DNA of 57,270 bases from an uncultured virus (IMG/VR IMGVR_UViG_3300022907_001216) (taxonomy: Duplodnaviria > Heunggongvirae > Uroviricota > Caudoviricetes). Every line of letters begins with the position of its first letter. Within the stretch, counting starts at the first letter, position 1. The stretch lies in the IMG/VR virus record IMGVR_UViG_3300022907_001216. One strand, written 5' to 3'. Both the position numbers and the translations under genes were made by a program. Shown here one piece after another: positions 1-57,270 of the stretch. The notes beneath the pieces are model-generated. The model was not told the origin of the DNA. It made no database searches and was given only the letters and a program-made list of their open reading frames with translations.

Positions 1-3000
1 CCATAAACACTTTCCCACCATGTTGGTTTTATTGAAATTCCTAACATTTCCCAAGGTGTAATATGCGGCCTGTCTGTGTCATAATAATATCTATAGATAT
101 TTCTCCAAAAACCAACTAATGTTTCGCCGTCAAAGTCAGTCATGTTACGATAATTATAAGTTAATGGATTAGAGCCATCATAAAAATCCTGCGAAGTATA
201 ATCAGGATTATTTGCGCCGTCTAACCATTTGCTAAAATCTTCTAGCAGTATATTATTAAAATCTTGTGTTTTGTAATTAGTTTTTCTAAATTTACCAGGA
301 AGAACGTTATGTATATCTAAAAAATTAGTATCATAATTAATCTTAATATTGTTGTAAATTCTTTTTTCTAATTCTAATAATAGGTCATCTCTATAATCAC
401 CAAATGCCTTTGTACGACTACCATCATGTCCTAGTATAACAGATACGTTTCCAGTTACAGATGTATCATTTATAATTTGTGGTTCATACTTTGGTAAAAA
501 TCCTAGTTTTGTTGGTGTTGGTGGCACAAAACATCCTGCTGTGTTATCAAATTCAACTACAGTGATTTGGTCATTTTCAACAGCATTTGTATACTTTACA
601 AAACCATCTTCGATTGTATAATCTTTGTTTATTGTTTTGATTTCGTCATTTACATATACTAAAATTGATTTTGAACTTAATGTAGTCATATCAAAACCAT
701 CATAACTAGTAGGAATATATTCAATTCCAGTATAATCTACACTAGTAGTATTTGCTCTAGATTTGTTAAAAGGAACCATATCACTAGCAAAAAAGGCAAA
801 CGAACTAGTTTTGTCTTTAGTAATTTTTTTCATTATCAAATCAACATGATCTGCAGTAGATCCATGAAAACCAGTTTTTGTTGATTCAGTTAAAAACGCT
901 CTTTTAAATCTGCTGTATTCAGATTGAGCAAAATTTAATGACTTAATAACATTTGCGTTTTTATCAACAATGTGATAAGATGCTAAATTAAACGGACTAC
1001 TATGCTTCATAAATTGTGAACCATATTCTGTAGCGTTTCCAATGTCTCTTAAATTTGTTACTCCTGGAGCAATTCCTGTAGTGTCAGGATGATCAAACAA
1101 TATAGTGTTTACATGTTTATTAACTTCACCAATTGTAAAGGTTGTAACATCATTGTTGGTAGGATTACTTTCTAAATTCCTAGGTATTTCATAATAGCCA
1201 TTATTATTTTTATCTGCGGCACTATAGCATTTTAAAACTACAATATCTGTGCTAGATAAATTTTTAATAAAACTTACACGCTTATTAGGAACAGCATTGG
1301 TTAAATTATAATCAATACCTTCAATTTTTTTCTCACCATTAACAAAAACTTTGATTTGTAAATCATCTAACAAGTAACTATTTTCAAACACATCAACGTC
1401 AAAGTCATTTACTTTAGCATTGTATTGTCTAATCACTGCTTGTCTAGATTTAAAATAAGTTTTTTTCCAAACATTTTCATAGGCAAAATTATCACCAGTG
1501 AAATCATAAATTTTAAAAAATCCTGTTTTTATTGAGTTTGTAACTGTATTAGAATTGTCGTCTTGATAATTAAATGTGTCTAAATTATAATCAAAACTAA
1601 AAACAATATCACCAAAATTATTAATACTTTCGTATGTTAACGGAAATCCCAATTCAACATCATTACTGCCTGAGCCTTTTTTGTAACTAAAAAGTTTTGT
1701 ACCTTGGAAGGTACTACCTTTATAATAAGTTTCGTTTGTAAAGGCATTTCCAGAGGAATCAAACAAATCAAAATGCGGTGCTTCGTTAACTGCTGTTTTT
1801 TCTTGGCTCATTTTCCATGAAGTATTTTCATAATGGAACATTTTGCCGCTGTTTACATCTCCAAGTAACACTAAAACACTATCGCCTTCATTTGGTATAG
1901 TATCTGTAGTTTCAACTAAACTAATTTGTCTCTTTTTTGTTTCAGTAGTTCCAAAGTTAATAAAGTTTACAGTATAAATTTTTCCATTAACTAATATATC
2001 AGGATCAGCAGTAAATAATATTCTCATATCTTGTGTTATCTCTACACCGTCAATGATGTAACCGCCAGAACCTTCTATAGTACTAAAAACATCAGTAGTA
2101 AATGTATCAACAAGATCTACATTTTGTTTACTTTTTACACCATGATTAAAAAGTTTTATTCCTGCTTCAAATTCAATAATAGGTCGTTTAGCTCTTGCGT
2201 TTTGATCTAACGCTACTGGCTGATTATTAGCAGCAAAACTAGCTTCAATTACGTCTTTATGAAACCATCTATTATACCTACTCCAAGGATTTCTATCCTT
2301 GCTTGAACGATTTACACAAATATAATCTTTGTTTGCTGGAAAACTTCTAGCATCTTCAAAAGGAAATTTATCAAACGCATAGTCTTCGCCGTCAAATGGT
2401 ATGGCTACTTCGGTTGTAAAAATTACAGGCACCTCTAAATCTTGTTCTTTTATCAGAACAATTTTACTTCCAACACCTTCTACAAAGTAATAACCATCGC
2501 TGTAACTAGCAGGTGTAACTTCGCCTTGAAAATTTAATTTCATTCCGTTGCTTAATTTTAAACCATTTTCTGTAGTATATGTCTTTTTACCAAGGATTTC
2601 TTGTTCAACATCAATTTTACTACTTTCTTCGATATTATAGAATGTAGCAACGCCAGATACATTTATTTCATTCTGACTTACATAATTCAAAGTAGGAGGT
2701 ACATCTGTATCAACAACAAAAACTATTCTACCATTTTCTATGTACTCGTCGGTAGTTTCAACTAATGTACCATCTTCCAATCTTTTGAACTTTGTAATAC
2801 CTGTATTGTAAAGTGTGCTATTATTTTCAGCGTCAATAGAAAGAAGAGGATCGTTGTCATTAAAATTGATATCACTTACAAATGATATAGGATGCCCAGG
2901 TGTGTTAATATCAAAAGTATATGTTTGTCCTTTGAATAATTTTAAAGTGGGATTTTTTGTTAAACCGTCTGGTGAAAACACATATGTTGGATATTGATCT

Positions 3001-3518
3001 CCTGCAGCTAATTCAACACTGTATGTGCTTTGAACAGCAATACTTTGTCCTGTAACATTAATAGGATCTGGGCCAAGAGGCAACCAGTAATATTCTCTAA
3101 AATTTGTAAACTTATCCCAATCAATATGTGGATTCCAACTATAACTTATTTGAGTGTTAAGTAAACTGTGATTACTTACAGAACCTTTAAAGTTTTTTAT
3201 GCTACCAAGAAAATCTGTGTATCCAGCAAAAAAATCAACATTATTTAATTCGTCTTTGTAAACAGTGCTTGATTCAAATTGATAATTTTCTCTATCAATT
3301 GACACATCAGGCAAATACGAATCTGTAACTTGCGCCGTAGCAGCATTTCTACGTCCTACAAACGCATCAATTTTTTCTACTACACCCTCTGATGTCATTA
3401 CATCTGTGGTTGATTGTAAAAACTTTTTGTTTGTATCTGTTCTAAAATACCTAGGTAAAAAATTTTCAGTTTTTTTATCTGAATTGCCTGTTGGCAATGG
3501 AAGATCGTTTTTCGCCAT
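1..3518 (-). CDS. Giant baseplate wedge / virion structural protein (gp7-like position), truncated at window start
   Basis: Not in the ORF track. ATG at 3518 overlaps the gp6 stop (TAATG). It reads MAKNDLPLPTGNSDKKTENFLPRYFRTDTNKKFL...WNPHIDWDKFTNFREYYWLPLGP and appears open to the window edge (>1170 codons). The product is inferred from its position after gp6. Confidence 0.7.
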   Translation of the reverse strand, partial: MAKNDLPLPTGNSDKKTENFLPRYFRTDTNKKFLQSTTDVMTSEGVVEKIDAFVGRRNAATAQVTDSYLPDVSIDRENYQFESSTVYKDELNNVDFFAGYTDFLGSIKNFKGSVSNHSLLNTQISYSWNPHIDWDKFTNFREYYWLPLGPDPINVTGQSIAVQSTYSVELAAGDQYPTYVFSPDGLTKNPTLKLFKGQTYTFDINTPGHPISFVSDINFNDNDPLLSIDAENNSTLYNTGITKFKRLEDGTLVETTDEYIENGRIVFVVDTDVPPTLNYVSQNEINVSGVATFYNIEESSKIDVEQEILGKKTYTTENGLKLSNGMKLNFQGEVTPASYSDGYYFVEGVGSKIVLIKEQDLEVPVIFTTEVAIPFDGEDYAFDKFPFEDARSFPANKDYICVNRSSKDRNPWSRYNRWFHKDVIEASFAANNQPVALDQNARAKRPIIEFEAGIKLFNHGVKSKQNVDLVDTFTTDVFSTIEGSGGYIIDGVEITQDMRILFTADPDILVNGKIYTVNFINFGTTETKKRQISLVETTDTIPNEGDSVLVLLGDVNSGKMFHYENTSWKMSQEKTAVNEAPHFDLFDSSGNAFTNETYYKGSTFQGTKLFSYKKGSGSNDVELGFPLTYESINNFGDIVFSFDYNLDTFNYQDDNSNTVTNSIKTGFFKIYDFTGDNFAYENVWKKTYFKSRQAVIRQYNAKVNDFDVDVFENSYLLDDLQIKVFVNGEKKIEGIDYNLTNAVPNKRVSFIKNLSSTDIVVLKCYSAADKNNNGYYEIPRNLESNPTNNDVTTFTIGEVNKHVNTILFDHPDTTGIAPGVTNLRDIGNATEYGSQFMKHSSPFNLASYHIVDKNANVIKSLNFAQSEYSRFKRAFLTESTKTGFHGSTADHVDLIMKKITKDKTSSFAFFASDMVPFNKSRANTTSVDYTGIEYIPTSYDGFDMTTLSSKSILVYVNDEIKTINKDYTIEDGFVKYTNAVENDQITVVEFDNTAGCFVPPTPTKLGFLPKYEPQIINDTSVTGNVSVILGHDGSRTKAFGDYRDDLLLELEKRIYNNIKINYDTNFLDIHNVLPGKFRKTNYKTQDFNNILLEDFSKWLDGANNPDYTSQDFYDGSNPLTYNYRNMTDFDGETLVGFWRNIYRYYYDTDRPHITPWEMLGISIKPTWWESVY

Positions 3519-16018: not shown

Positions 16019-17032
16019 TTGTTTAAAAAAGCTGCGGTCTTTACAGATATCCATTTTGGATTGAAGGGTAATTCGCGAATACACAACCAAGATTGTGAAA
16101 ATTATGTAGACTGGTTTATACAAACTGCTAAAGACAACGGATGCGAAACTGCTTTGTTTACCGGTGACTGGAATCATAATAGAAATAGTCTCAATTTAAC
16201 TACTATGGATGCCGGTATTCGTAGTTTAGAAAAGTTAGGAGGCGCATTTGACAACTTTTATATGTTTGCTGGTAACCACGACTTGTACTACAAAGATAAA
16301 CGTGATGTAAAGTCTACTGAATTTGCGAAACACATACCTGGTATTACAGTTATTGAAGACATTTATGTCAAAGACGATGTAGCATTAGTGCCTTGGCTAG
16401 TCGAAGACGAATGGAAACAAATAAAAAACATAAAATCTAAGTATTTGTTTGGGCATTTTGAACTTCCTAGTTTCTATATGAACGCAATGGTACAGATGCC
16501 CGACCATGGAGAACTAAAAGCTGAACATTTCCAACATCAAGAGTATGTGTTTAGTGGACATTTTCATAAAAGACAAAAACAAGGCAAGATACATTACATT
16601 GGTAATGCGTTTCCACACAATTATGCCGATGCTTGGGACGATGATCGTGGTATGATGATACTAGATCTTGAAAACAATGCCGAACCTGAGTATATAAATT
16701 GGTTAGATTGTCCAAAGTATCGTACAGTAAAACTATCGCAACTAATTGACCAGAAAGAAACATTAATAAAACCAAATATGTATCTACGAGTTACCTTAGA
16801 CTTGCCGGTAAGTTACGAAGAAGCAAGTTTTATTAAAGAAACATTCATAAACGAATATGCTTGTCGAGAAATCACACTTATTCCACAAAAACAACTAGAA
16901 GAAATCAATACCGAACTAGACATTGCTCAATTTGAAAGTGTTGACCAAATTGTTAGTAATGAAATTATGGCAATTGACAGCGATAACTTTGATAAAGCAA
17001 CACTTTTAGAAATTTATAATGGCTTAGAATGA
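16019..17032 (+). CDS. Recombination endonuclease subunit gp47 (Mre11/SbcD-like)
   Basis: Metallophosphoesterase motifs DIHFG, GD, GNHD, GHFE and SGHFH; TTG start with AGGAG SD. Confidence 0.92.
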   Translation: MFKKAAVFTDIHFGLKGNSRIHNQDCENYVDWFIQTAKDNGCETALFTGDWNHNRNSLNLTTMDAGIRSLEKLGGAFDNFYMFAGNHDLYYKDKRDVKSTEFAKHIPGITVIEDIYVKDDVALVPWLVEDEWKQIKNIKSKYLFGHFELPSFYMNAMVQMPDHGELKAEHFQHQEYVFSGHFHKRQKQGKIHYIGNAFPHNYADAWDDDRGMMILDLENNAEPEYINWLDCPKYRTVKLSQLIDQKETLIKPNMYLRVTLDLPVSYEEASFIKETFINEYACREITLIPQKQLEEINTELDIAQFESVDQIVSNEIMAIDSDNFDKATLLEIYNGLE

Positions 17033-18807
17033 TAAAAATTAAAGACTTAACAGTAAAGAACTTTATGAGTGTGGGTAATGTTACCCAAGCAGTTGATTTT
17101 GAAGAGGATCAACTCACTCTAGTGCTTGGTGAAAACTTAGATCAAGGAGGTGACGACTCAGGCTCACGCAACGGTACAGGCAAAACTACTATAATCAATG
17201 GATTATCTTACGCCTTGTACGGCCAAGCACTGACCAACATCAAGAGAAACAATCTTATCAATAAGACAAACTCTAAAGGCATGTTGGTCACCCTTAATTT
17301 TGAGAAAGGCGGTAATCAATACCGTATAGAACGTGGTAGATCACCTAACATTCTCAAGTTTTATGTAAATGACCAAGAACAAAAAGACGAGTTTGAAGAT
17401 AATAGCCAAGGCGATAGTCGTAAAACACAAGAAACTATCAATAACTTGTTGGATATGAGCCATGATATGTTTAAACACATTGTTGCTTTAAACACATACA
17501 CCGAACCTTTCTTGAGTATGCGTACAAATGATCAACGTGCTATTATTGAACAATTATTAGGTATTACCTTGTTATCCGAGAAAGCAAGTATACTTAAAGA
17601 GTTAGTTAAAACAACAAAAGATAACATTGTCCAAGAAACGTTAAAGATCGAAGCTATACAAAAAGCAAACGAAGGCATCCAAAGCACTATTAATAACTTG
17701 GAAACAACTCAAAAAGCATGGAAATCCAAACAAAGATCCGATATAGACAAACTAACTAGTGCTATAGAACATTTAGAAGAGCTTGATATCGAAAAAGAGC
17801 TAGATTCTCATGAAAAACTAGCAAATTGGACTGAACACAATAACACTATATCAGCTCTTAGAAAAGAATTAGCCACATTAGAACCAGCGCTGGTACGTGC
17901 CGACAAGAGTGTTAGTAAATTAAACAAAGATATTGTTGAATTAAAAGACGCTACATGTTATACATGCGGACAGGAACTTCATGTAGATAAAAAAGCAGAG
18001 ATAGAAGCCAAAAAAGCGAAAGAACTTGAAGATACTATGTCATATCAAGTAGAAGTTGCTGGTAAACTTGAAGATGTTGTGAAAGCATTAGACGAAATAG
18101 GCGATATTAATGGAAAGCCTACTACATTTTACGAAAATGCTAAAGAAGCATATGAACATAGAAACAACGTAGATAATTTGAAGAAAACATTGCTAAGTAA
18201 ACAGCAAGAGGCGGATCCATACCAGGCACAAATTGACGACTTAACAGACACAGCACTTCAACCCATTGATTGGACACCGGTAAACAAACTAACAAATATA
18301 AAAGAACATCAAGAGTTTCTTTTAAAACTGTTAACAAACAAAGATTCGTTTATTCGAAAGAAGATCATTGATCAAAACTTAGCATATCTAAACAATAGGC
18401 TAACATACTACTTAGATAGAATAGGATTGCCGCATCAAGTTGTGTTTCAAAACGATTTAAACGTTGAAATTACACAACTAGGGCAAGATTTAGACTTTGA
18501 TAACCTGTCACGTGGTGAACGTAACAGGCTAATACTTGGTCTTAGCTTTGCTTTCCGTGATGTTTGGGAAAGTTTATACCAAAGTATTAACTTATTGTTC
18601 ATTGACGAGCTTATTGACAGTGGAATGGACACAGCAGGCGTAGAAAATAGTATAGGCATACTAAAAAAGATGACTAGAGAGCGTGATAAGAACGTGTTCT
18701 TGATTAGTCATAAGGATGAACTAGTAGGCAGAGTGAATAACGTATTAAGAGTTGTTAAAGAAAACGGCTTTACCAGTTACGCAACAGATATTGATATTGT
18801 AGAATAA
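17029..18807 (+). CDS. Recombination ATPase subunit gp46 (Rad50/SbcC-like)
   Basis: Walker A NGTGKTT, zinc hook CYTC, signature LSRGE, Walker B LFIDE, ISH, and coiled coils. Confidence 0.93.
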   Translation: MIKIKDLTVKNFMSVGNVTQAVDFEEDQLTLVLGENLDQGGDDSGSRNGTGKTTIINGLSYALYGQALTNIKRNNLINKTNSKGMLVTLNFEKGGNQYRIERGRSPNILKFYVNDQEQKDEFEDNSQGDSRKTQETINNLLDMSHDMFKHIVALNTYTEPFLSMRTNDQRAIIEQLLGITLLSEKASILKELVKTTKDNIVQETLKIEAIQKANEGIQSTINNLETTQKAWKSKQRSDIDKLTSAIEHLEELDIEKELDSHEKLANWTEHNNTISALRKELATLEPALVRADKSVSKLNKDIVELKDATCYTCGQELHVDKKAEIEAKKAKELEDTMSYQVEVAGKLEDVVKALDEIGDINGKPTTFYENAKEAYEHRNNVDNLKKTLLSKQQEADPYQAQIDDLTDTALQPIDWTPVNKLTNIKEHQEFLLKLLTNKDSFIRKKIIDQNLAYLNNRLTYYLDRIGLPHQVVFQNDLNVEITQLGQDLDFDNLSRGERNRLILGLSFAFRDVWESLYQSINLLFIDELIDSGMDTAGVENSIGILKKMTRERDKNVFLISHKDELVGRVNNVLRVVKENGFTSYATDIDIVE

Positions 18808-19049
18808 TGGAATCAGATACACATGACAAAATTATACTTGCTGTTCTTGAATACTTTAGGTTGAATGAAGAATTTCAACAAAGACCAGCAGAGCTTAAAC
18901 GTAGAAAAGTACGTAAAGCACTGTCTAGTATACGATATTTGTGTTTAGACAGACGAGCAGAAGTACTAGAAGAACATATTAAACATGTAAAAGACGGCAG
19001 AGCAAAAAACAATCCAGAAAAGGCACGAGAAGCAAAGTCAAACAAGTAA
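18807..19049 (+). CDS. Small basic protein, possibly DNA-binding (resembles histone H1-like Hc1 phage proteins)
   Basis: 80 aa, coupled to the gp46 stop. The NEEF...RKVRKALSSIRYLCLDRRAEV pattern gives only a weak family resemblance. Confidence 0.5.
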   Translation: MESDTHDKIILAVLEYFRLNEEFQQRPAELKRRKVRKALSSIRYLCLDRRAEVLEEHIKHVKDGRAKNNPEKAREAKSNK

Positions 19050-19056
19050 CTACAGT

Positions 19057-19491
19057 ATGAGTTGGACATACAAAGGTAAAGAAATAACTGAAGTATCAGA
19101 CGAATACGAAGGGTTCGTTTACCTTATAACCAATTTAACAGACAATCGCAAATACGTAGGCAAAAAACTAGCAAAATTTAAAACAACCAAGCCACCATTA
19201 AAAGGCAAAAAGAATAAAAGACGCGGAACAAAAGAATCAGATTGGAGAGACTATTGGGGATCTTCAGATAAACTATTAGCAGACGTAGAAAAATTAGGCG
19301 AAAACAATTTTACAAGAGAGATACTATACTTTTGTAAAAGTAGAGGCGAAATGTCATACCTAGAGGCACGAGAACAATTTGAACGTAGAGTTTTAGAAAC
19401 AGATGAATACTACAACGGTATTATAAACGTTCGAGTTGGTGGTTCAAATATACTTAGAGAAAATTTAAAGGCACATCAGGACACTGTTTGA
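19057..19491 (+). CDS. Stand-alone GIY-YIG family endonuclease
   Basis: GFVY-LITN...KYVG motif pair, then YWGSS, REIL, the conserved Glu in YLEAREQ, and YYN; 144 aa, catalytic domain only. Confidence 0.85.
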   Translation: MSWTYKGKEITEVSDEYEGFVYLITNLTDNRKYVGKKLAKFKTTKPPLKGKKNKRRGTKESDWRDYWGSSDKLLADVEKLGENNFTREILYFCKSRGEMSYLEAREQFERRVLETDEYYNGIINVRVGGSNILRENLKAHQDTV

Positions 19492-19840
19492 TCGGAATTG
19501 TTCGATCCACCTTGAGCTTCACGTAACCACGTGATCAGACACTGGTGAAGTCCCACAGGCTGTATGCTACGAAAACCCCTTAGCACTAGGAACGAAGCGG
19601 GGGATAGCGCATTTTGCGTGATGTCGACGTAGGTTGGGAAAGGTCAGAGCCCAGTAGCAAAGTCAAACACCTACTTCCGAATCTCGGCCATGCTACTCGT
19701 ATGAAGCAAGAGAAGATGGAGCCTCTGCAAGGTTCCGTCTGACCAATTAATCTGTATGAAACTAAAGTGCTTCGCACTTATAATAAATAAAAAAGTGTTT
19801 GAGTGACAACGAAAAACACAGATGAACGTAAGTTCATCTT
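19490..19840 (+). ncRNA. Candidate large structured non-coding RNA
   Basis: About 52% GC over 19501-19740 (hand count) in an AT-rich genome, with no credible ORF. Contains many stems, several with G-U pairs favouring the + strand, a GUAA tetraloop, and a 7-bp long-range pairing GGTCAGA/TCTGACC. Confidence 0.65.
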
Positions 19841-19847
19841 GATAAAG

Positions 19848-19854
19848 ATAAATA
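19848..19854 (+). promoter_or_regulatory. Putative late promoter (ATAAATA)
   Basis: Motif 30 nt upstream of the ATG at 19885. Confidence 0.5.
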
Positions 19855-19884
19855 ATATTAACAAAACACTTTAGGATTTATATT

Positions 19885-20556
19885 ATGCAAGTATTTCAAA
19901 TTATTGCCGAAGAAAATGAATTAGAAGAAGCTATTCCATTTACTAAAAAAGCTAAAATGATGAAGCAAGCCAAAAAAGCTGCTAAGGGTGCTACTAAAGA
20001 TGAAGCACGTCAAATGGAAGTTGAGTTGTTAACATATCTTAAAACATCAAAGCAACAACCAACTGTTGATGCTGTTATGAAATATTTTGATCAAAAAGGT
20101 TTAGGTAATGTAGCAGCACCTATTGTTAAGAATTTCCAAAGCAAAGGCAATAAAAAAGCAGCTCGTAGCCAAGCAAGACAAGATAAAGCTAGAGCAGCTG
20201 GACAAGCAGCAGCAAAACTTGGTGGCATGGCTAAAGTTGGCGCACAAAAAGCAGGCGCCGCAGCTAAAGCTGCTGGTACTGCTGTAAAAAATGCTAGTGG
20301 AGTTGTACCAGCAGGACAAATTAATCAAAGTGTTTACGAAGCTGAAGGACAAGACGTTTTAACCAAACGTGAAGTGCGTAATATTATTAGTCAAGTTGTG
20401 GCTAAAGGCTACGGCGGAGCAGCAGGATTTGATAAGAGTAGATTTGCTCAAGACGAACCAAAAGCTACGTTTAAATCACAAAGAGCAGCACCTGATGCTG
20501 AAACTCAAGCAGCAATTGATAAAGTAAAAGCTGCTGGATACAAGATTACAAAATAA
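19885..20556 (+). CDS. Ala/Lys-rich hypothetical protein, possible internal head protein
   Basis: 223 aa after a late-promoter motif. The short acidic leader IIAEENELEEA carries gp21-type [IL]-x-E sites and is followed by a basic body. Confidence 0.55.
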   Translation: MQVFQIIAEENELEEAIPFTKKAKMMKQAKKAAKGATKDEARQMEVELLTYLKTSKQQPTVDAVMKYFDQKGLGNVAAPIVKNFQSKGNKKAARSQARQDKARAAGQAAAKLGGMAKVGAQKAGAAAKAAGTAVKNASGVVPAGQINQSVYEAEGQDVLTKREVRNIISQVVAKGYGGAAGFDKSRFAQDEPKATFKSQRAAPDAETQAAIDKVKAAGYKITK

Positions 20557-53044: not shown

Positions 53045-56000
53045 GAGCTGTAGACAAGTTTAATAGATATGGACGCACTGTTTACAATGGACAGGATGTT
53101 TTGAAAAATCATTTTTTAAATGGTTATCCAAAACATTATACTAATGATACAATGGACTATAGTATTATAGATCAATATCAAGATTATGATTATGTTTGGA
53201 TTGTAGATAAAGACTTAGAAACACTAAGAACATTTCCATGGCATTTTAAGCCTAAGGAACACGGCATCCATTGTTTTCCTTATGTGTACAAGAGAAGTAA
53301 AAGAATATTAAGCTGGGACAAAGTTAAACTTGTTCCTACGAAAAACTTAAACAAACAATATCGTATTGAGCAAAAACATATTTGTGCCAAGTATGATGTG
53401 CTTTGTGGAAAAGAAAGTTTTAATATTTTCTATCAAGGAAATAAATCAGATCAAGAATTTAAAAAATTATCTGAAAAGTTTGCTAGTGCCAAGTGTGTAA
53501 AAAACTATAAAGATGCTCAAAAACAAAGCGAAACAGATATGTTTTGGCTTGTCCCTAATGATGTACAAGTAAGTGAGTTTTTTAAATTTTCCTATATGCC
53601 TGATGACTGGAGCCAAAAATATGTTCATGTTTTTAGTAACGGAAAAGCAAAAACTAAAGATGGTATAATTCTTGCTCCTAAAAACTATACTCCAAGTAAA
53701 AAAGAACTATCTCATAGATTCTACGCTGAAAAGAAAGACGTAAGCATACTTGCTAGTAAACCTTTACCTTACAAACAAATGAGTTTTAAAGACTATCAAC
53801 ATTATTGCGATACTATAGAAACATTAGATGACGACTTAGTATGGTGGATACCACAAGATATTATTGTGGAAGATTCTTTTGATTTAAATTTGTACATAAG
53901 TCATCATAATCAATATGATAGACAAATAAATCATGTTTATCTAAACGGTGAACATTACGATGGTGTAATGCTGTTGAGTAAACATTGTAAAATTACTGAA
54001 AAAGAATTTAACAATAGATTTTTAGCTGTAAAAAAAGAACACGAGGTGGTAGCAAGCCGTCCAAAAAAGTTTGATACTTTTACAATAAATTCTTATTCTG
54101 ATTACAAACGTGCCTTAGATAATACAACAACTGATATGTTTTGGGGCGTACCAGATGATGTAAATTTAGTAAAAGATTTAGATTTATATTTTTCACATCA
54201 TAATTTATATGACAGAAAAATTACTCATGTTTTCAAAAATAAAGAATCATATGACGGTGTTGTTTTATATAACACCAGCTCTAAACTTACAAAAAAAGAA
54301 GTAGAACATAGGTTTTATACAAAGAAAAAAGAATGGGATGTCGTTTATAGTACTCCTAAAGGTTTTGATTTTTTTGAAATTGATACTTACGAAGACTACT
54401 TATATGCCAAAGAAAAATCTACAACTGATATGTTTTGGATGTCTAGTCCTCAACTAAGAACATATCAAAAATGTATAGATGAATTTTATATTAGTCATCA
54501 TAATATTATCGATAGGAATCAAGTACACGCATTTGTACATAGCTGCGATGATAAAATTTGTTTTAATGGTGTGTTTCTTATACCAAAAAATCATACCCTT
54601 ACAGAAAATGAAATTTTACATAGACATCCTGTAGTAAGAAAAGAACATAACACAGTATTCAGTGTGCCAGCACCTTATGATTATTTTTTAATCGATTCGT
54701 ATGACGAATATTTACAAGCTATGGAAATGTCTAGAACAGAAATGTTTTGGATGAGTAGCAGAAATATAAACACTTTGGCATTTGATTTTGATTTTGTTTT
54801 TAACCACACAGACACATACAACAGAAAGGAAAATCATGCATTTATACATGATGTTGATGGAAGGCAATTATACAACGGTTTATTCTTATGTTCAAAACAT
54901 AAACCAGTGTTACAAAAAGAAATAGAATATAGACATTTTATGTTTTGTAAACAACACAACATTGTTGGATCAAAACCTGTAACTTATTCTAGTTTTACAA
55001 TTGATACATATGCTGATTATCTGTATGCTTTTGCTAATACTAAAACTGAAATGTTTTGGGGAACATGTAGTCATTTAGAAACAGCACACGATTTCAAATT
55101 TGATACATATTTTAGTCACGACAATATATTTGATAGAGAATGCAATCATGCTTTTATAAATCAAGGCGAAGATTCATGTGCATACAATGGTTATTTTTTG
55201 TTTAGTAAACATGCTCCAGTTACTGAAAAAGAAATTAAACATAGATTTTTAGTAAACGCTAAAGAACATTATAAAGTTGCTAGTAAGAATAAATCGTATG
55301 ATATTTTCCATGTAGACTCGTATGATGAATATTTACAAGCAATGGATACGTCAAGTACAGAATTATTTTGGGCAATTAGTAGAAATTGTAATACAGACGT
55401 ATACGATTTTAGTTTAACATTTGATTGGAATAACGAATATGACAGAAATGAAAATCATAGTTTTATTCATCAAGTAAACGGGTTTCCTTATAGGAATGCT
55501 GTATTTTTATTAAGTAAACATAAACCAGTAACAAAAAAAGAAATTGAATTCAAGCACTTAGCAAGTTGTAAAGAATGGGATATTGTAGCAAGCCAAGAAT
55601 GTGTATATGACGAGTTTATTATTGAAACTTATTCTCATTATTTAGATGCTTTAGAAAACAGTAACACCGAACTGTTTTATGGATATACAAAGAATATTGA
55701 TACTACGGCTTTTGACTTTGATCTTTATTTTACACATGATAATGAATTTGATCGAAAAATTAACCATACATTCGTACACGAAGTAGATGGCAAACATTTT
55801 AGAAATGGTTTATTTTTATATAGTAAACACGCCCCAGTAACTGAAAAAGAAATAGAATATAGGCATATTGTAAATGCTAAACACTGGAACGACATTGGTA
55901 GTAAAAAAGTTCAGTATGATAGATTTGTTGTAAACAATTATTCTGATTATTTGAAAGCATTAGATACAACTGAAACTGAAATGTTTTGGGCAATTCCTAG

Positions 56001-57270
56001 TGATGTAGAAGTTGAACTTTCTTTTAAATTTGATCAATACTTTACGCATGACAATGAATACGATAGAAAGATAAACCATATTTTTAAAAATGGTGAGTTC
56101 TGGGATGGTGTAGCACTTATGTCAACACATGCTCCTGTGACACAACAAGAAGTTGAACACAGATGGTATGCTAACAGAAAGAAACATGATATTGTTGCTA
56201 GTATACCAAAAGCATTTCCTGTGTTTAACATACAAACTTACAATGATTATTTAAAAGCATTTGACGAATCTAAATCTAATATGTTTTGGGGAACAACTCC
56301 TAACATAAAAATAAATGAAGATTTTGATATGAGTATGTATATAGATATACACAACAGTTATGACAGAACAATCAATCATGCTTTTAAACACAAAGCAAAT
56401 GGAAAAGAAACCTATAATGGATTATTTTTATTTACAAAACACGCACCGTTAACACAAAAAGAAATAGAATACAGAACCATAGCTAGGCGCAAAGAATGGG
56501 ATATTGTAGCCTCTAGTGCTGTTGTATATGATAGATTTACTATTAACACTTACAAAGATTACTTAAGAGCAATTGACACTAGCAAAACTGAAATGCTATG
56601 GATCATACCAAAAGAAGTCACTGTTTCAAAAGATTTCAAATTTGATCTATATTTTACTCATGATCAACAATTTGAAAGACAAACAAATCACGTGTTTAAA
56701 AATGGCAATGCTTGGGACGGTATTAGTTTAGTACCTAAACATCAACAACTTACTGAACGCGAAATTAAAATGCGATTTTTAGCAAATAAAAAACAATATG
56801 ATGTTCAAGCAAGTCAGCCAGAACCTTACGATATTGTATACATAAGTAAAGATGAAGAATACGCTGATATTAATTATAAAAACATATTAGAAAAATTTCC
56901 AAGAACAAAACGTATTCACGGTGTTGAAGGTATTCATCAAGCACACATTGAGGCAGCAAAATTGTGTTCAACTGATATGATTTGGATTATTGATGCCGAT
57001 GCTGAGATAGTAGATAATTTTAACTTTGATTATTATATACCTACATATGATCCAGATAGTAAAAGAACAGTTCATGTTTGGAAATCAAAAAATCCAATAA
57101 ACGGATTAATTTACGGATATGGCGCTGTCAAACTTTTGCCACGAGATTTAACACTTAATATGGACACTAACAAGCCTGATATGACAACAAGTATAAGTCC
57201 GCTATTTAAAACTATTAATCAAATAAGTAATATAACAAAATTTAACACAGACGAGTTTAGCACATGGCGT
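53041..57270 (+). CDS. Giant tandem-repeat glycosyltransferase-like protein (>1410 aa), truncated at window end
   Basis: Not in the track. The ATG overlaps the upstream TGA and the frame is open to the window end. It has ~13 units of ~100 aa (TxMFW...F.F..YF.H...DR..NH.F...NG..L..K); the last unit has WIIDADA. Confidence 0.8.
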   Translation, partial: MRAVDKFNRYGRTVYNGQDVLKNHFLNGYPKHYTNDTMDYSIIDQYQDYDYVWIVDKDLETLRTFPWHFKPKEHGIHCFPYVYKRSKRILSWDKVKLVPTKNLNKQYRIEQKHICAKYDVLCGKESFNIFYQGNKSDQEFKKLSEKFASAKCVKNYKDAQKQSETDMFWLVPNDVQVSEFFKFSYMPDDWSQKYVHVFSNGKAKTKDGIILAPKNYTPSKKELSHRFYAEKKDVSILASKPLPYKQMSFKDYQHYCDTIETLDDDLVWWIPQDIIVEDSFDLNLYISHHNQYDRQINHVYLNGEHYDGVMLLSKHCKITEKEFNNRFLAVKKEHEVVASRPKKFDTFTINSYSDYKRALDNTTTDMFWGVPDDVNLVKDLDLYFSHHNLYDRKITHVFKNKESYDGVVLYNTSSKLTKKEVEHRFYTKKKEWDVVYSTPKGFDFFEIDTYEDYLYAKEKSTTDMFWMSSPQLRTYQKCIDEFYISHHNIIDRNQVHAFVHSCDDKICFNGVFLIPKNHTLTENEILHRHPVVRKEHNTVFSVPAPYDYFLIDSYDEYLQAMEMSRTEMFWMSSRNINTLAFDFDFVFNHTDTYNRKENHAFIHDVDGRQLYNGLFLCSKHKPVLQKEIEYRHFMFCKQHNIVGSKPVTYSSFTIDTYADYLYAFANTKTEMFWGTCSHLETAHDFKFDTYFSHDNIFDRECNHAFINQGEDSCAYNGYFLFSKHAPVTEKEIKHRFLVNAKEHYKVASKNKSYDIFHVDSYDEYLQAMDTSSTELFWAISRNCNTDVYDFSLTFDWNNEYDRNENHSFIHQVNGFPYRNAVFLLSKHKPVTKKEIEFKHLASCKEWDIVASQECVYDEFIIETYSHYLDALENSNTELFYGYTKNIDTTAFDFDLYFTHDNEFDRKINHTFVHEVDGKHFRNGLFLYSKHAPVTEKEIEYRHIVNAKHWNDIGSKKVQYDRFVVNNYSDYLKALDTTETEMFWAIPSDVEVELSFKFDQYFTHDNEYDRKINHIFKNGEFWDGVALMSTHAPVTQQEVEHRWYANRKKHDIVASIPKAFPVFNIQTYNDYLKAFDESKSNMFWGTTPNIKINEDFDMSMYIDIHNSYDRTINHAFKHKANGKETYNGLFLFTKHAPLTQKEIEYRTIARRKEWDIVASSAVVYDRFTINTYKDYLRAIDTSKTEMLWIIPKEVTVSKDFKFDLYFTHDQQFERQTNHVFKNGNAWDGISLVPKHQQLTEREIKMRFLANKKQYDVQASQPEPYDIVYISKDEEYADINYKNILEKFPRTKRIHGVEGIHQAHIEAAKLCSTDMIWIIDADAEIVDNFNFDYYIPTYDPDSKRTVHVWKSKNPINGLIYGYGAVKLLPRDLTLNMDTNKPDMTTSISPLFKTINQISNITKFNTDEFSTWR

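What the first reader, a model, noticed from the sequence alone, without database searches (positions are those of the whole stretch)
19057..19840. Stand-alone GIY-YIG nuclease followed immediately by a ~350 nt structured RNA: candidate nuclease-ncRNA system
Seen in the sequence: this is the largest non-coding gap in an otherwise tightly packed window. It starts at the GIY-YIG stop codon and is ~52% GC (19501-19740, hand count) in an AT-rich genome. Stems: GATCGGA/TTCGATC (19490-19507), TCACGT/ACGTGA (19519-19534), CCCC/GGGG around 19576-19603, GCGCA/TGCGT (19607-19619), GTAGGT/ACCTAC (19629-19674) enclosing TGGG/CCCA, CCGA/TCGG (19677-19687), AGATGGAGCC/GGTTCCGTCT (19714-19740, two G-U pairs), AAGTGC/GCACTT, and AGATGAAC-GTAA-GTTCATCT (19820-19839, GNRA loop). 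The G-U pairs favour an RNA on the same strand as the nuclease. The nuclease has only the catalytic domain plus a basic insert (KTTKPPLKGKKNKRRGTK) and lacks the DNA-recognition tail of I-TevI/Seg homing enzymes. Established: compact nucleases paired with adjacent ncRNAs exist (IscB/HEARO, TnpB). Inference: the RNA could be a partner (guide, scaffold or inhibitor) of the GIY-YIG protein, or an independent phage ncRNA or ribozyme. I could not assign it to a known family.
Basis: partly seen in the sequence, partly recalled or inferred. Interest (0 to 1): 0.88.

Follow-up and report, generated by a model that had tools for sequence, protein, structure and literature searches.

The report
New large structured RNA in phages
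Just after a small nuclease gene in a giant marine phage lies a highly folded RNA gene of about 350 bases that matches no catalogued RNA family and is conserved in hundreds of related uncultured phages; there is no evidence yet that it works with the nuclease, and its function is unknown.

Summary
The GC-rich stretch 19490-19840 (+) is real and is a conserved, structured non-coding RNA. Its helices carry compensatory changes: 84.8% of cells are paired against 35-45% in slid controls. G-U pairs outnumber A-C 182 to 52, which places it on the + strand.

It matches no Rfam 15 family. No cultured phage holds it. It is abundant in uncultured marine T4-like myophages, probably about 350 kb in size.

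Most relatives carry an extra 5' domain of about 190 nt, giving roughly 460-520 nt. A divergent 'type B' shares only the 3' module.

The RNA always lies downstream of the SegE-like GIY-YIG gene, and no locus breaks this: 89 of 120 and 71 of 120 pattern-found loci show the gene, and the rest were too short to judge. But the whole neighbourhood is syntenic. Close and distant GIY-YIG homologues lack the RNA. Another ORF can sit between gene and RNA. No guide-like segment was seen.

The strangest feature is two 7-nt boxes 54-68 nt apart. They are identical in 168 of 173 unique sequences although the box sequence itself varies.

Best reading: an autonomous new class of large phage RNA. Nuclease partnership is unproven.

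The parts
19057..19491 (+). SegE-like GIY-YIG gene, 144 aa: catalytic domain only, with about 20 residues after it
   Evidence: Pfam PF19835, E 8.2e-35. Invariant GFVY, Y33/G35, R55, E88 and N120 across 7 homologues.
19490..19507 (+). 5' hairpin S1, overlapping the stop codon
   Evidence: 11 of 11 sequences paired at all 7 positions, with compensatory swaps.
19507..19547 (+). Second 5' hairpin domain (CCACC...GGTG enclosing TCACGT/ACGTGA). It is the short counterpart of the roughly 190-nt 5' domain of most relatives.
   Evidence: The shared CACGTAAC motif was read by eye.
19558..19570 (+). 5' strand of long-range helix P2 (GGCT, TGCTAC)
   Evidence: Pairs with 19654-19664. Variants GCTAC/GTAGC, ACACA/TGTGT, GTACA/TGTAC and GTTCA/TGAAC (helix 4).
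19576..19603 (+). Helix P3 with the invariant loop AGGAACGAAG (19588-19597)
   Evidence: Five of 7 pairs change on both sides (helix 5). The loop GGAA could pair with the invariant TTCC at 19675-19678; this is untestable.
19607..19619 (+). Helix P4, a variable-length expansion stem (0 to about 90 extra nt in relatives)
   Evidence: All 4 base pairs show double changes (helix 7).
19620..19653 (+). Invariant 34-nt core (GATGTCGAC GTAGGT TGGG AAAGGTCAGAG CCCA)
   Evidence: Nearly all columns are invariant in 82 and 45 representatives. It served as the pattern.
19654..19664 (+). 3' strand of P2
19669..19678 (+). ACCTAC-TTCC: local partner of GTAGGT (a pseudoknot relative to P2) and possible partner of the P3 loop
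   Evidence: 100% paired but invariant (helices 6 and 9).
19682..19713 (+). Helix P7 (TCTCG/CGAGA-type) with box X in its loop
   Evidence: 81% paired; UCUUG/CAAGA variants (helix 11).
19699..19705 (+). Box X (GTATGAA in the window)
   Evidence: Identical to box Y in 168 of 173 unique sequences. Normalised MI is 1.0 at box positions 1, 2 and 5.
19714..19740 (+). Hairpin P8
   Evidence: helix 12.
19739..19755 (+). CTGACC and AATCT plus the first two box-Y bases: distal partners of GGTCAG (19642-19647) and GTAGGTTG (19629-19636). This is an alternative or pseudoknot pairing.
   Evidence: RNAalifold on 82 sequences. All changes but 4 cells keep pairing through G-U. AGGTCA/TGAC is also present in type B (read by eye).
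19754..19760 (+). Box Y (GTATGAA)
19765..19779 (+). Hairpin P9 with a UUCG loop
   Evidence: Covarying and of variable length.
19795..19819 (+). Hairpin P10: outer stem GTGTT/AACAC, tandem G-A/A-G, then a 2-bp stem capped by a 4-nt loop (k-turn or C/D-box-like)
   Evidence: The loop-closing pair is C-G in 68, U-A in 11 and G-U in 1. The motif reading is my inference.
19820..19839 (+). 3' hairpin P11 (GNRA loop), with no U tract on the + strand
   Evidence: The strongest covariation in the alignment. The terminator scan calls it only on the - strand.
19848..19854 (+). ATAAATA, like a T4-type late promoter, ahead of the next ORF (19885-20556)
   Evidence: Sequence located. The promoter consensus is recalled, not tested.

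Best explanation
Window 19490-19840 (+) encodes a member of a previously uncatalogued family of large, pseudoknotted non-coding RNAs. It is 349 nt here and about 460-520 nt in most relatives. The family is specific to a clade of uncultured, probably jumbo, marine T4-like myophages.

It is most likely transcribed with the upstream early/middle unit (gp46, a small ORF, GIY-YIG). It begins at the stop codon of whichever ORF precedes it and ends at a hairpin just before a late-promoter-like motif.

Its architecture is an invariant core, long-range helices or pseudoknots, and variable-length peripheral stems. That is the pattern of RNAs that act through their own fold, such as ribozymes or RNP scaffolds.

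I read the two identical, co-varying 7-nt boxes X and Y as twin recognition sites for one shared, phage-specific partner that is still unidentified. That partner may be an RNA or a protein other than the nuclease's basic segment.

Shown: existence, strand, conservation, helices, single copy per genome, box identity and adjacency. Inferred: co-transcription, autonomy from the nuclease, and the twin-site reading.
For: Conservation.
- nhmmer finds the element after the GIY-YIG gene in 65 of 80 viral loci. The 15 misses all end 185 nt or less after the stop codon.
- 83 representatives remain below 93% identity.

Structure.
- 84.8% of cells are paired, against 35-45% when partners are slid.
- 19 pairs change on both sides.
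- The covariation score is 0.170 against 0.104 in shuffles; 0 of 500 shuffles reach it.
- MI analysis recovers the helices.

Strand: 182 G-U cells against 52 A-C cells.

Not coding.
- Spacing between conserved blocks varies by lengths that are not multiples of three (X-Y period 54-68 nt; residues mod 3 are 33, 39 and 71).
- 34 nt are invariant with no wobble-position change.

Novelty.
- No Rfam hit at gathering thresholds in the window.
- Only chance-level hits at E up to 10.
- Nothing consistent across 12 homologous loci.

Copy number: model R1 hits the window once (196 bits, 19556-19763 +) and hits three large contigs once each.

RNA libraries.
- In four metatranscriptome runs, contigs identical to the window run from the GIY-YIG gene across the stop codon into the RNA, as far as 19646-19650.
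- Other variants of the RNA are present as well.

Twin boxes.
- X equals Y in 168 of 173 unique sequences, with at least 10 box variants.
- X equals Y in type B too.
- X-Y is the strongest covariation of those columns.

Autonomy from the nuclease.
- The Melnitz genome has the nuclease (72.6% identity) but no RNA.
- Cyanophage and IME-SM1 homologues have no gap after the gene.
- An extra ORF of 92 or 87 aa lies between gene and RNA in L044 and L011, and the RNA then starts at that ORF's stop codon.
- The nuclease's basic segment is nearly invariant across box variants and across RNA types.
Against: - No discrete transcript, transcript end or abundance has been shown. Only contigs were available, and DNA carry-over in RNA libraries cannot be excluded.
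- The single-sequence fold is not more stable than shuffles.
- No partner for the boxes was found. No segment able to pair with them, G-U allowed, sits at a constant place within -400 to +700 nt.
- Adjacency to the GIY-YIG gene has no exception: 89 loci with the gene and 0 without among 120 pattern loci, and 71 with and 0 without among 120 metagenome loci; the rest were too short. It even survives the replacement of the RNA's 5' half in type B. This is what a functional link would also predict.
- The core pairings GTAGGT/ACCTAC and TGGG/CCCA are invariant and so untested, and a rival pairing exists.
Confidence: 0.55

Rival explanations
1. The RNA is a functional partner of the GIY-YIG protein. 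It could be a cofactor, scaffold, inhibitor or antitoxin-like regulator, a guide, or the protein's own substrate, with the protein processing the RNA at boxes X and Y.
For: - Adjacency on the same strand has no exception in either direction within the clade.
- It is kept in type B although the 5' half of the RNA is replaced.
- The RNA starts at the gene's stop codon in most loci.
- RNA-library contigs bridge the gene and the RNA.
- The protein has a strongly conserved basic segment and no DNA-recognition tail.
Against: - The whole gp46 / small ORF / GIY-YIG / RNA block is syntenic, so adjacency may be inheritance.
- Homologues at 72.6% (Melnitz) and about 40% identity lack the RNA.
- An ORF can separate the two.
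- No long unstructured hypervariable (guide-like) segment was seen in the alignments.
- The basic segment does not change with the boxes.
- From my own knowledge, no RNA-guided GIY-YIG enzyme is known.
Confidence: 0.2
2. Homing-type association. The GIY-YIG gene is a free-standing Seg-like endonuclease parked beside a highly conserved RNA gene that holds its cleavage site, as (from my recollection) SegB sits among the tRNA genes of T4. The RNA would then have its own, unrelated function.
For: - The protein belongs to the SegE family.
- Family members sit in different genomic contexts in Melnitz, cyanophages and IME-SM1, which suggests past mobility.
- An invariant 34-nt core next door would make an ideal target.
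Against: - No presence/absence polymorphism: no RNA locus without the gene.
- The protein is conserved at 75-100% identity.
- It lacks a DNA-binding tail.
Confidence: 0.1
3. Cis-acting switch. The RNA is a ligand- or factor-responsive leader or 3'UTR element that controls read-through from the early unit into the downstream late genes, by toggling between the local pairing (GTAGGT/ACCTAC) and the distal pairing (GTAGGTTG/AATCTAC).
For: - Two mutually exclusive pairings of one invariant segment are each kept by G-U-compatible changes (helix 9).
- Hairpins and a promoter-like motif follow.
Against: - The downstream gene differs among loci; the 223-aa ORF's homologue is the neighbour in only a few.
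- There is no U tract after the 3' hairpin on the + strand.
- At 350-520 nt, the size is far above usual aptamers.
Confidence: 0.1
4. Not an RNA. It would be a DNA-level element (origin, packaging or recombination site with two direct repeats) or a small protein-coding gene.
For: - Direct repeats X and Y flank an inverted repeat.
- A 63-aa ORF on the - strand and a 42-aa ORF on the + strand exist in the window.
Against: - Compensatory base-pair changes with a G-U over A-C excess on one strand.
- Indels that break the reading frame.
- Nucleotide invariance at all codon positions of the core.
- Single-stranded + strand DNA is not excluded by these data.
Confidence: 0.05

Closest known systems
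TnpB/IscB nucleases with omega-RNA (HEARO)
   Same: A compact nuclease gene lies directly next to a long structured RNA on the same strand. As with TnpB (from my recollection), the RNA begins at the 3' end of the ORF.
   Different: The nuclease is GIY-YIG, not RuvC/HNH. There is no transposon context and no guide-like variable segment. Close homologues of the nuclease lack the RNA. Rfam, whose library I recall as including HEARO, gives no match.
Large 'ornate' orphan RNAs (GOLLD, ROOL, OLE, raiA)
   Same: Size of 350-520 nt, an invariant core with variable peripheral stems, pseudoknots, phage association and unknown function. PMC12286853 (abstract seen in a search listing only) reports that GOLLD, ROOL and OLE form homo-oligomers.
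   Different: No sequence or structure match to any of them. The fixed position after a GIY-YIG gene and the twin identical boxes are not features I know from those RNAs.
T4 Seg endonucleases beside stable-RNA genes (segB in the tRNA/rnaC/rnaD cluster)
   Same: A GIY-YIG Seg-type gene adjacent to structured stable-RNA genes in a T4-like phage. This comparison is recalled, not tested here.
   Different: No tRNA in the window. No polymorphism of the nuclease gene. The protein lacks the DNA-binding part.
Lambdoid nut sites (boxA/boxB) and N proteins
   Same: Short RNA boxes that are the same at two sites within one phage but differ between phages, as expected of sites read by a co-evolving partner. 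This comparison is recalled.
   Different: The boxes here lie 54-68 nt apart inside one large RNA. No cognate protein has been identified, and the neighbouring nuclease's basic segment does not co-vary.
csRNA catalogue from IMG/VR (PMC10690425)
   Same: The same source collection and the same kind of evidence (covariation in intergenic regions of phage contigs).
   Different: Passages read state that its candidates are 29-151 nt long. Whether fragments of this RNA are among them could not be checked, because the alignment files were too large to search.

Membership tests
Any Rfam 15 family | Covariance-model score at or above the gathering threshold, or a consistent sub-threshold hit across homologues | tested here: not met
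   0 hits at gathering thresholds in the whole window. Only 4 chance-level hits at E up to 10 in 19000-20000. One unrelated hit in 12 homologous loci at E up to 0.5.
tRNA / tmRNA | ARAGORN detection | tested here: not met
   0 genes in the window.
Omega-RNA / guide-RNA nuclease system (TnpB, IscB) | RuvC-type nuclease | tested here: not met
   The protein matches only SegE_GIY-YIG.
Omega-RNA / guide-RNA nuclease system (TnpB, IscB) | A conserved scaffold next to a hypervariable, unstructured guide segment | tested here: not met
   The variable parts are self-complementary stems (P4, P9, P11), the covarying P2 strand, or the 7-nt boxes.
Omega-RNA / guide-RNA nuclease system (TnpB, IscB) | The RNA co-occurs with the nuclease family wherever the nuclease occurs | tested here: not met
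   Melnitz, P-SSM7, S-SCSM1 and IME-SM1 homologues lack it.
Group I intron carrying a GIY-YIG ORF | Intron core detectable, and flanking exons of a split host gene | tested here: not met
   No group I intron match in Rfam. Only 7 nt separate the preceding ORF from the GIY-YIG start, and the next gene has its own start.
SegE-type GIY-YIG nuclease (the protein) | Pfam PF19835 match above its cut-off | tested here: met
   120.2 bits against a cut-off of 25; profile positions 1-123 all matched.
SegE-type GIY-YIG nuclease (the protein) | Catalytic constellation (GIY, YIG, Arg, Glu, Asn) | tested here: met
   GFVY, Y33/G35, R55, E88 and N120 are invariant in 7 homologues. Assigning them to catalytic roles rests on recalled I-TevI knowledge.
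Free-standing homing endonuclease | Sporadic presence among close relatives, and a DNA-binding domain | tested here: not met
   The gene is present in every RNA locus that could be judged. Only about 20 residues follow the catalytic domain.
Intrinsic terminator (3' hairpin 19820-19839) | A GC-rich hairpin followed by a U tract on the transcribed strand | tested here: not met
   The scan calls it only on the - strand.
Kink-turn / C/D-box-like motif (19795-19819) | Tandem sheared G-A pairs next to a 3-nt bulge, with an L7Ae-type binder | tested here: inconclusive
   Tandem GA/AG flanks a covarying capped stem. The bulge geometry is atypical. No L7Ae family hit in four partial genomes, 29-66% complete.

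The most novel reading that the evidence does not exclude
The RNA and the GIY-YIG protein form a new kind of RNA-dependent nuclease system. Alternatively, the RNA is a new ribozyme class in which the twin identical boxes are two equivalent cleavage or ligation sites, so that the 54-68-nt segment between them is excised, exchanged or copied by template jumping.
Probability: 0.15. Interest if true: 0.95.

Novelty: new variant of a known kind. Interest (0 to 1): 0.75.

Why it matters
Large, intricately folded RNAs with invariant cores are rare, and several such classes have turned out to be ribozymes or central RNP components. It is confined to an uncultured clade of very large phages and appears in RNA libraries.

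Two features are directly testable:
- an exceptionless position after a conserved catalytic-domain-only GIY-YIG nuclease;
- two 7-nt boxes kept identical while their sequence drifts, which points to an unseen shared partner or to a copy/excision mechanism.

Either outcome would add a new RNA function to phage biology. If the nuclease link holds, it would be, to my knowledge, the first RNA-associated GIY-YIG system.

Tried and rejected
- Thermodynamic stability of the window sequence alone: not better than shuffles.
- Cultured phages: no blastn match to the RNA at E 1e-5 or E 1.
- The window's own assembly is not held, and the nearest record G001 has no match.
- Group I intron, tRNA/tmRNA and all Rfam families: rejected.
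- Coding ORF and translational bypass between matched boxes: rejected, because the X-Y spacing shows no multiple-of-three bias and no conserved reading frame flanks the boxes.
- Concatemer ('neo'-like) ORF from the X-Y unit: no multiple-of-three bias, and no reverse transcriptase hit (PF00078) in four partial genomes (incomplete genomes, so weak).
- Internal complement to the boxes: none at a constant position.
- X pairing with Y through a palindrome: only 4 bp, and not kept in all variants (hand analysis).
- Nuclease basic segment as reader of the boxes: it does not co-vary.
- Metatranscriptome contigs leave 19667-19819 uncovered in all four runs, and no joints were reported. With contigs this shows nothing either way. 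Depth differences cannot rank expression: the core unitig is at 25-60, and the contigs from the gene into the RNA at 5-18.5 against 2.6-8 for flanking contigs.
- Literature: three full-text searches found no description of this RNA. The supplementary alignments of PMC10690425 could not be searched, so fragments may be listed there.
- A weak R1 hit upstream of the GIY-YIG gene in L038 (20.1 bits) was not followed up.

Full report
**What is at the coordinates.** The window looks like a T4-like myophage. An SbcC/gp46-type gene lies at 17029-18807, an 80-aa ORF at 18807-19049 and a 144-aa ORF at 19057-19491. A 393-nt stretch follows, then a 223-aa ORF with no family match (19885-20556), then a baseplate-hub-like gene on the other strand.

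The 144-aa protein matches Pfam SegE_GIY-YIG over the whole profile (E 8.2e-35). The GIY, YIG, Arg, Glu and Asn positions are invariant in seven homologues. No relative with a solved structure is detectable by sequence.

GC rises to 0.525 at 19500-19699, against a window mean of 0.356 (sd 0.05). This is the top 200-nt value in the window, and two coding stretches come close. By a crude ORF map it is not the largest ORF-poor gap.

**Is the fold more than chance?** Not on this sequence alone: the minimum free energy is no better than that of dinucleotide shuffles on either strand (z +0.24 and +0.86). The case rests on relatives.

A protein-seeded scan of viral contigs found 598 relatives of the nuclease among 600 matched stretches, and kept the best 80. 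An iterated nhmmer profile of the intergenic stretch hits 65 of those 80 loci on the + strand. The 15 misses all end 185 nt or less after the stop codon. The Melnitz locus, with 2961 nt of downstream DNA, also has no hit.

It also found two contigs of one marine MAG.

**Structure and strand.** On 45 representatives of 19557-19763, my structure of 51 pairs gives:
- 84.8% paired cells, against 35-45% when the 3' partners are slid;
- 19 pairs with changes on both sides;
- a covariation score of 0.170 against 0.104 in shuffles, reached by 0 of 500 shuffles.

Well-supported helices:
- P3 (19576-19603), P4 (19607-19619) and part of the long-range P2 (19565-19570 with 19654-19659);
- P7 and P8;
- in the 82-sequence alignment, P9, the small capped stem of P10 and the 3' hairpin P11;
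- the 5' hairpin at the stop codon, paired in 11 of 11 sequences with compensatory swaps.

G-U cells outnumber A-C cells 182 to 52, which places the RNA on the + strand.

The 34-nt core at 19620-19653 is essentially invariant, so its local pairings (GTAGGT/ACCTAC and TGGG/CCCA) cannot be tested. RNAalifold instead pairs GTAGGTTG with the bases just before and inside box Y, and GGTCAG with CTGACC. All changes but four cells stay compatible with those pairings through G-U. The RNA therefore has either a pseudoknot or two alternative states.

**Size and variants.** In most relatives about 190 further conserved nucleotides, with their own covarying hairpins, lie between the stop codon and the core. 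This gives RNAs of roughly 460-520 nt; the window carries a short form of 349 nt.

Nine loci form a 'type B'. It has a different but equally conserved 5' half, with a recognisable GTAGG...AGGTCA motif, and the same 3' module. Model R1 scores these loci only weakly.

**The twin boxes.** Two 7-nt boxes lie at 19699-19705 and 19754-19760 and flank hairpin P8. They are identical to each other in 168 of 173 unique sequences. The box sequence itself takes at least ten forms in type A, and three further forms in type B.

In 137 full-length sequences the normalised mutual information between the boxes is 1.0 at three variable positions and 0.82 at a fourth. That is higher than with any other column.

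- The boxes are not complementary to each other.
- No complementary segment sits at a fixed place nearby.
- Their spacing of 54-68 nt shows no reading-frame bias.

I cannot explain this by intramolecular pairing. It fits two equivalent sites read by one variable partner, or a copy or excision process. It remains the main open question.

**Identity.** There is no Rfam 15 match in the window at gathering thresholds, none beyond chance at permissive thresholds, and nothing consistent over 12 homologous loci. There is no tRNA or tmRNA. No cultured phage record matches even at E 1.

Three literature searches found no description. The one catalogue that might list fragments could not be searched at the alignment level.

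**Relation to the nuclease.** Within the clade the link has no exception:
- 89 of 120 viral pattern loci and 71 of 120 metagenomic ones show the gene upstream on the same strand;
- the remaining 31 and 49 are too short to judge, and none lacks the gene;
- the two collections probably overlap, so these counts are not independent.

But the block gp46 / small ORF / GIY-YIG / RNA is syntenic throughout, so inheritance explains the link as well as function does. Several results argue against an obligate partnership:
- Melnitz phage encodes a 72.6%-identical protein in another context, and its complete genome has no R1 hit.
- P-SSM7, S-SCSM1 and IME-SM1 homologues, at about 40% identity, are followed at once by other genes.
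- In L044 and L011 an extra ORF of 92 or 87 aa lies between the gene and the RNA, and the RNA then begins at that ORF's stop codon.
- The nuclease's basic segment is nearly invariant across all box variants and both RNA types.
- No guide-like variable segment exists.

**Expression.** Four salt-marsh metatranscriptome runs hold contigs identical to the window. These contigs run from the nuclease gene across the stop codon to 19646-19650, where the assembly breaks at the invariant core shared by many strains. Other variants of the RNA are present too. This is compatible with co-transcription. It shows neither transcript ends nor abundance, and DNA carry-over is possible.

**Host and genome.** CheckV estimates put a 236-kb contig at 66% complete, which suggests genomes of about 350 kb. 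There is one RNA copy per contig.

**Verdict.** This is a real, new family of large structured phage RNAs. The nuclease-partner idea is neither shown nor excluded, and I rate it at about 0.2.

Noticed in passing
window 53045-56572 and 2211-3517: Several AT-rich stretches (GC 0.28-0.34) of 340-857 nt have no ORF of 50 aa or more. They are larger than the gap under study. No Rfam or tRNA hit lies there.
   Followed up: partly
L038:2299-2505 (+): About 1.7 kb of extra DNA sits between the small ORF and the GIY-YIG gene in this relative. It carries a weak full-length hit to RNA model R1 (20.1 bits, E 3.6e-4). This may be a second, degenerate copy, or it may be chance.
   Followed up: no
L205, L206 (contigs of 335 kb and 153 kb in one marine MAG): Both contigs carry gp46, the small ORF, GIY-YIG and the RNA at GC 0.37. 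They look like phage contigs binned into a bacterial MAG. That could be a binning artefact or a hint to the host.
   Followed up: partly
GenBank phage records hit; phrog_447: Many records, and the PHROG family itself, name this GIY-YIG family 'NAD synthetase'. The Pfam match and the conserved catalytic residues indicate a SegE-type nuclease, so the name looks like a propagated misannotation.
   Followed up: partly
window 19839-19820 (- strand): The 3' hairpin of the RNA, read on the - strand, is followed by GTGTTTTTCG and scores as an intrinsic terminator. It does not score on the + strand. It might stop antisense transcription.
   Followed up: no
window 19885-20556: The 223-aa Ala/Lys-rich ORF after the RNA has no Pfam or PHROG match. 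A homologue is the immediate neighbour of the RNA in only a few relatives; other loci carry different or additional ORFs there.
   Followed up: partly
L044:3419-3697; L011:3422-3685: Small ORFs of 92 and 87 aa, unrelated to each other by eye, are inserted between the nuclease gene and the RNA. In both, the RNA's conserved 5' start (TAGGCAAA) overlaps the inserted ORF's stop codon.
   Followed up: partly
G002-G005: CheckV completeness figures (110 kb = 30%, 236 kb = 66%) imply genomes of about 350 kb. The clade would then be jumbo T4-like phages with no cultured member in the phage collection searched.
   Followed up: no
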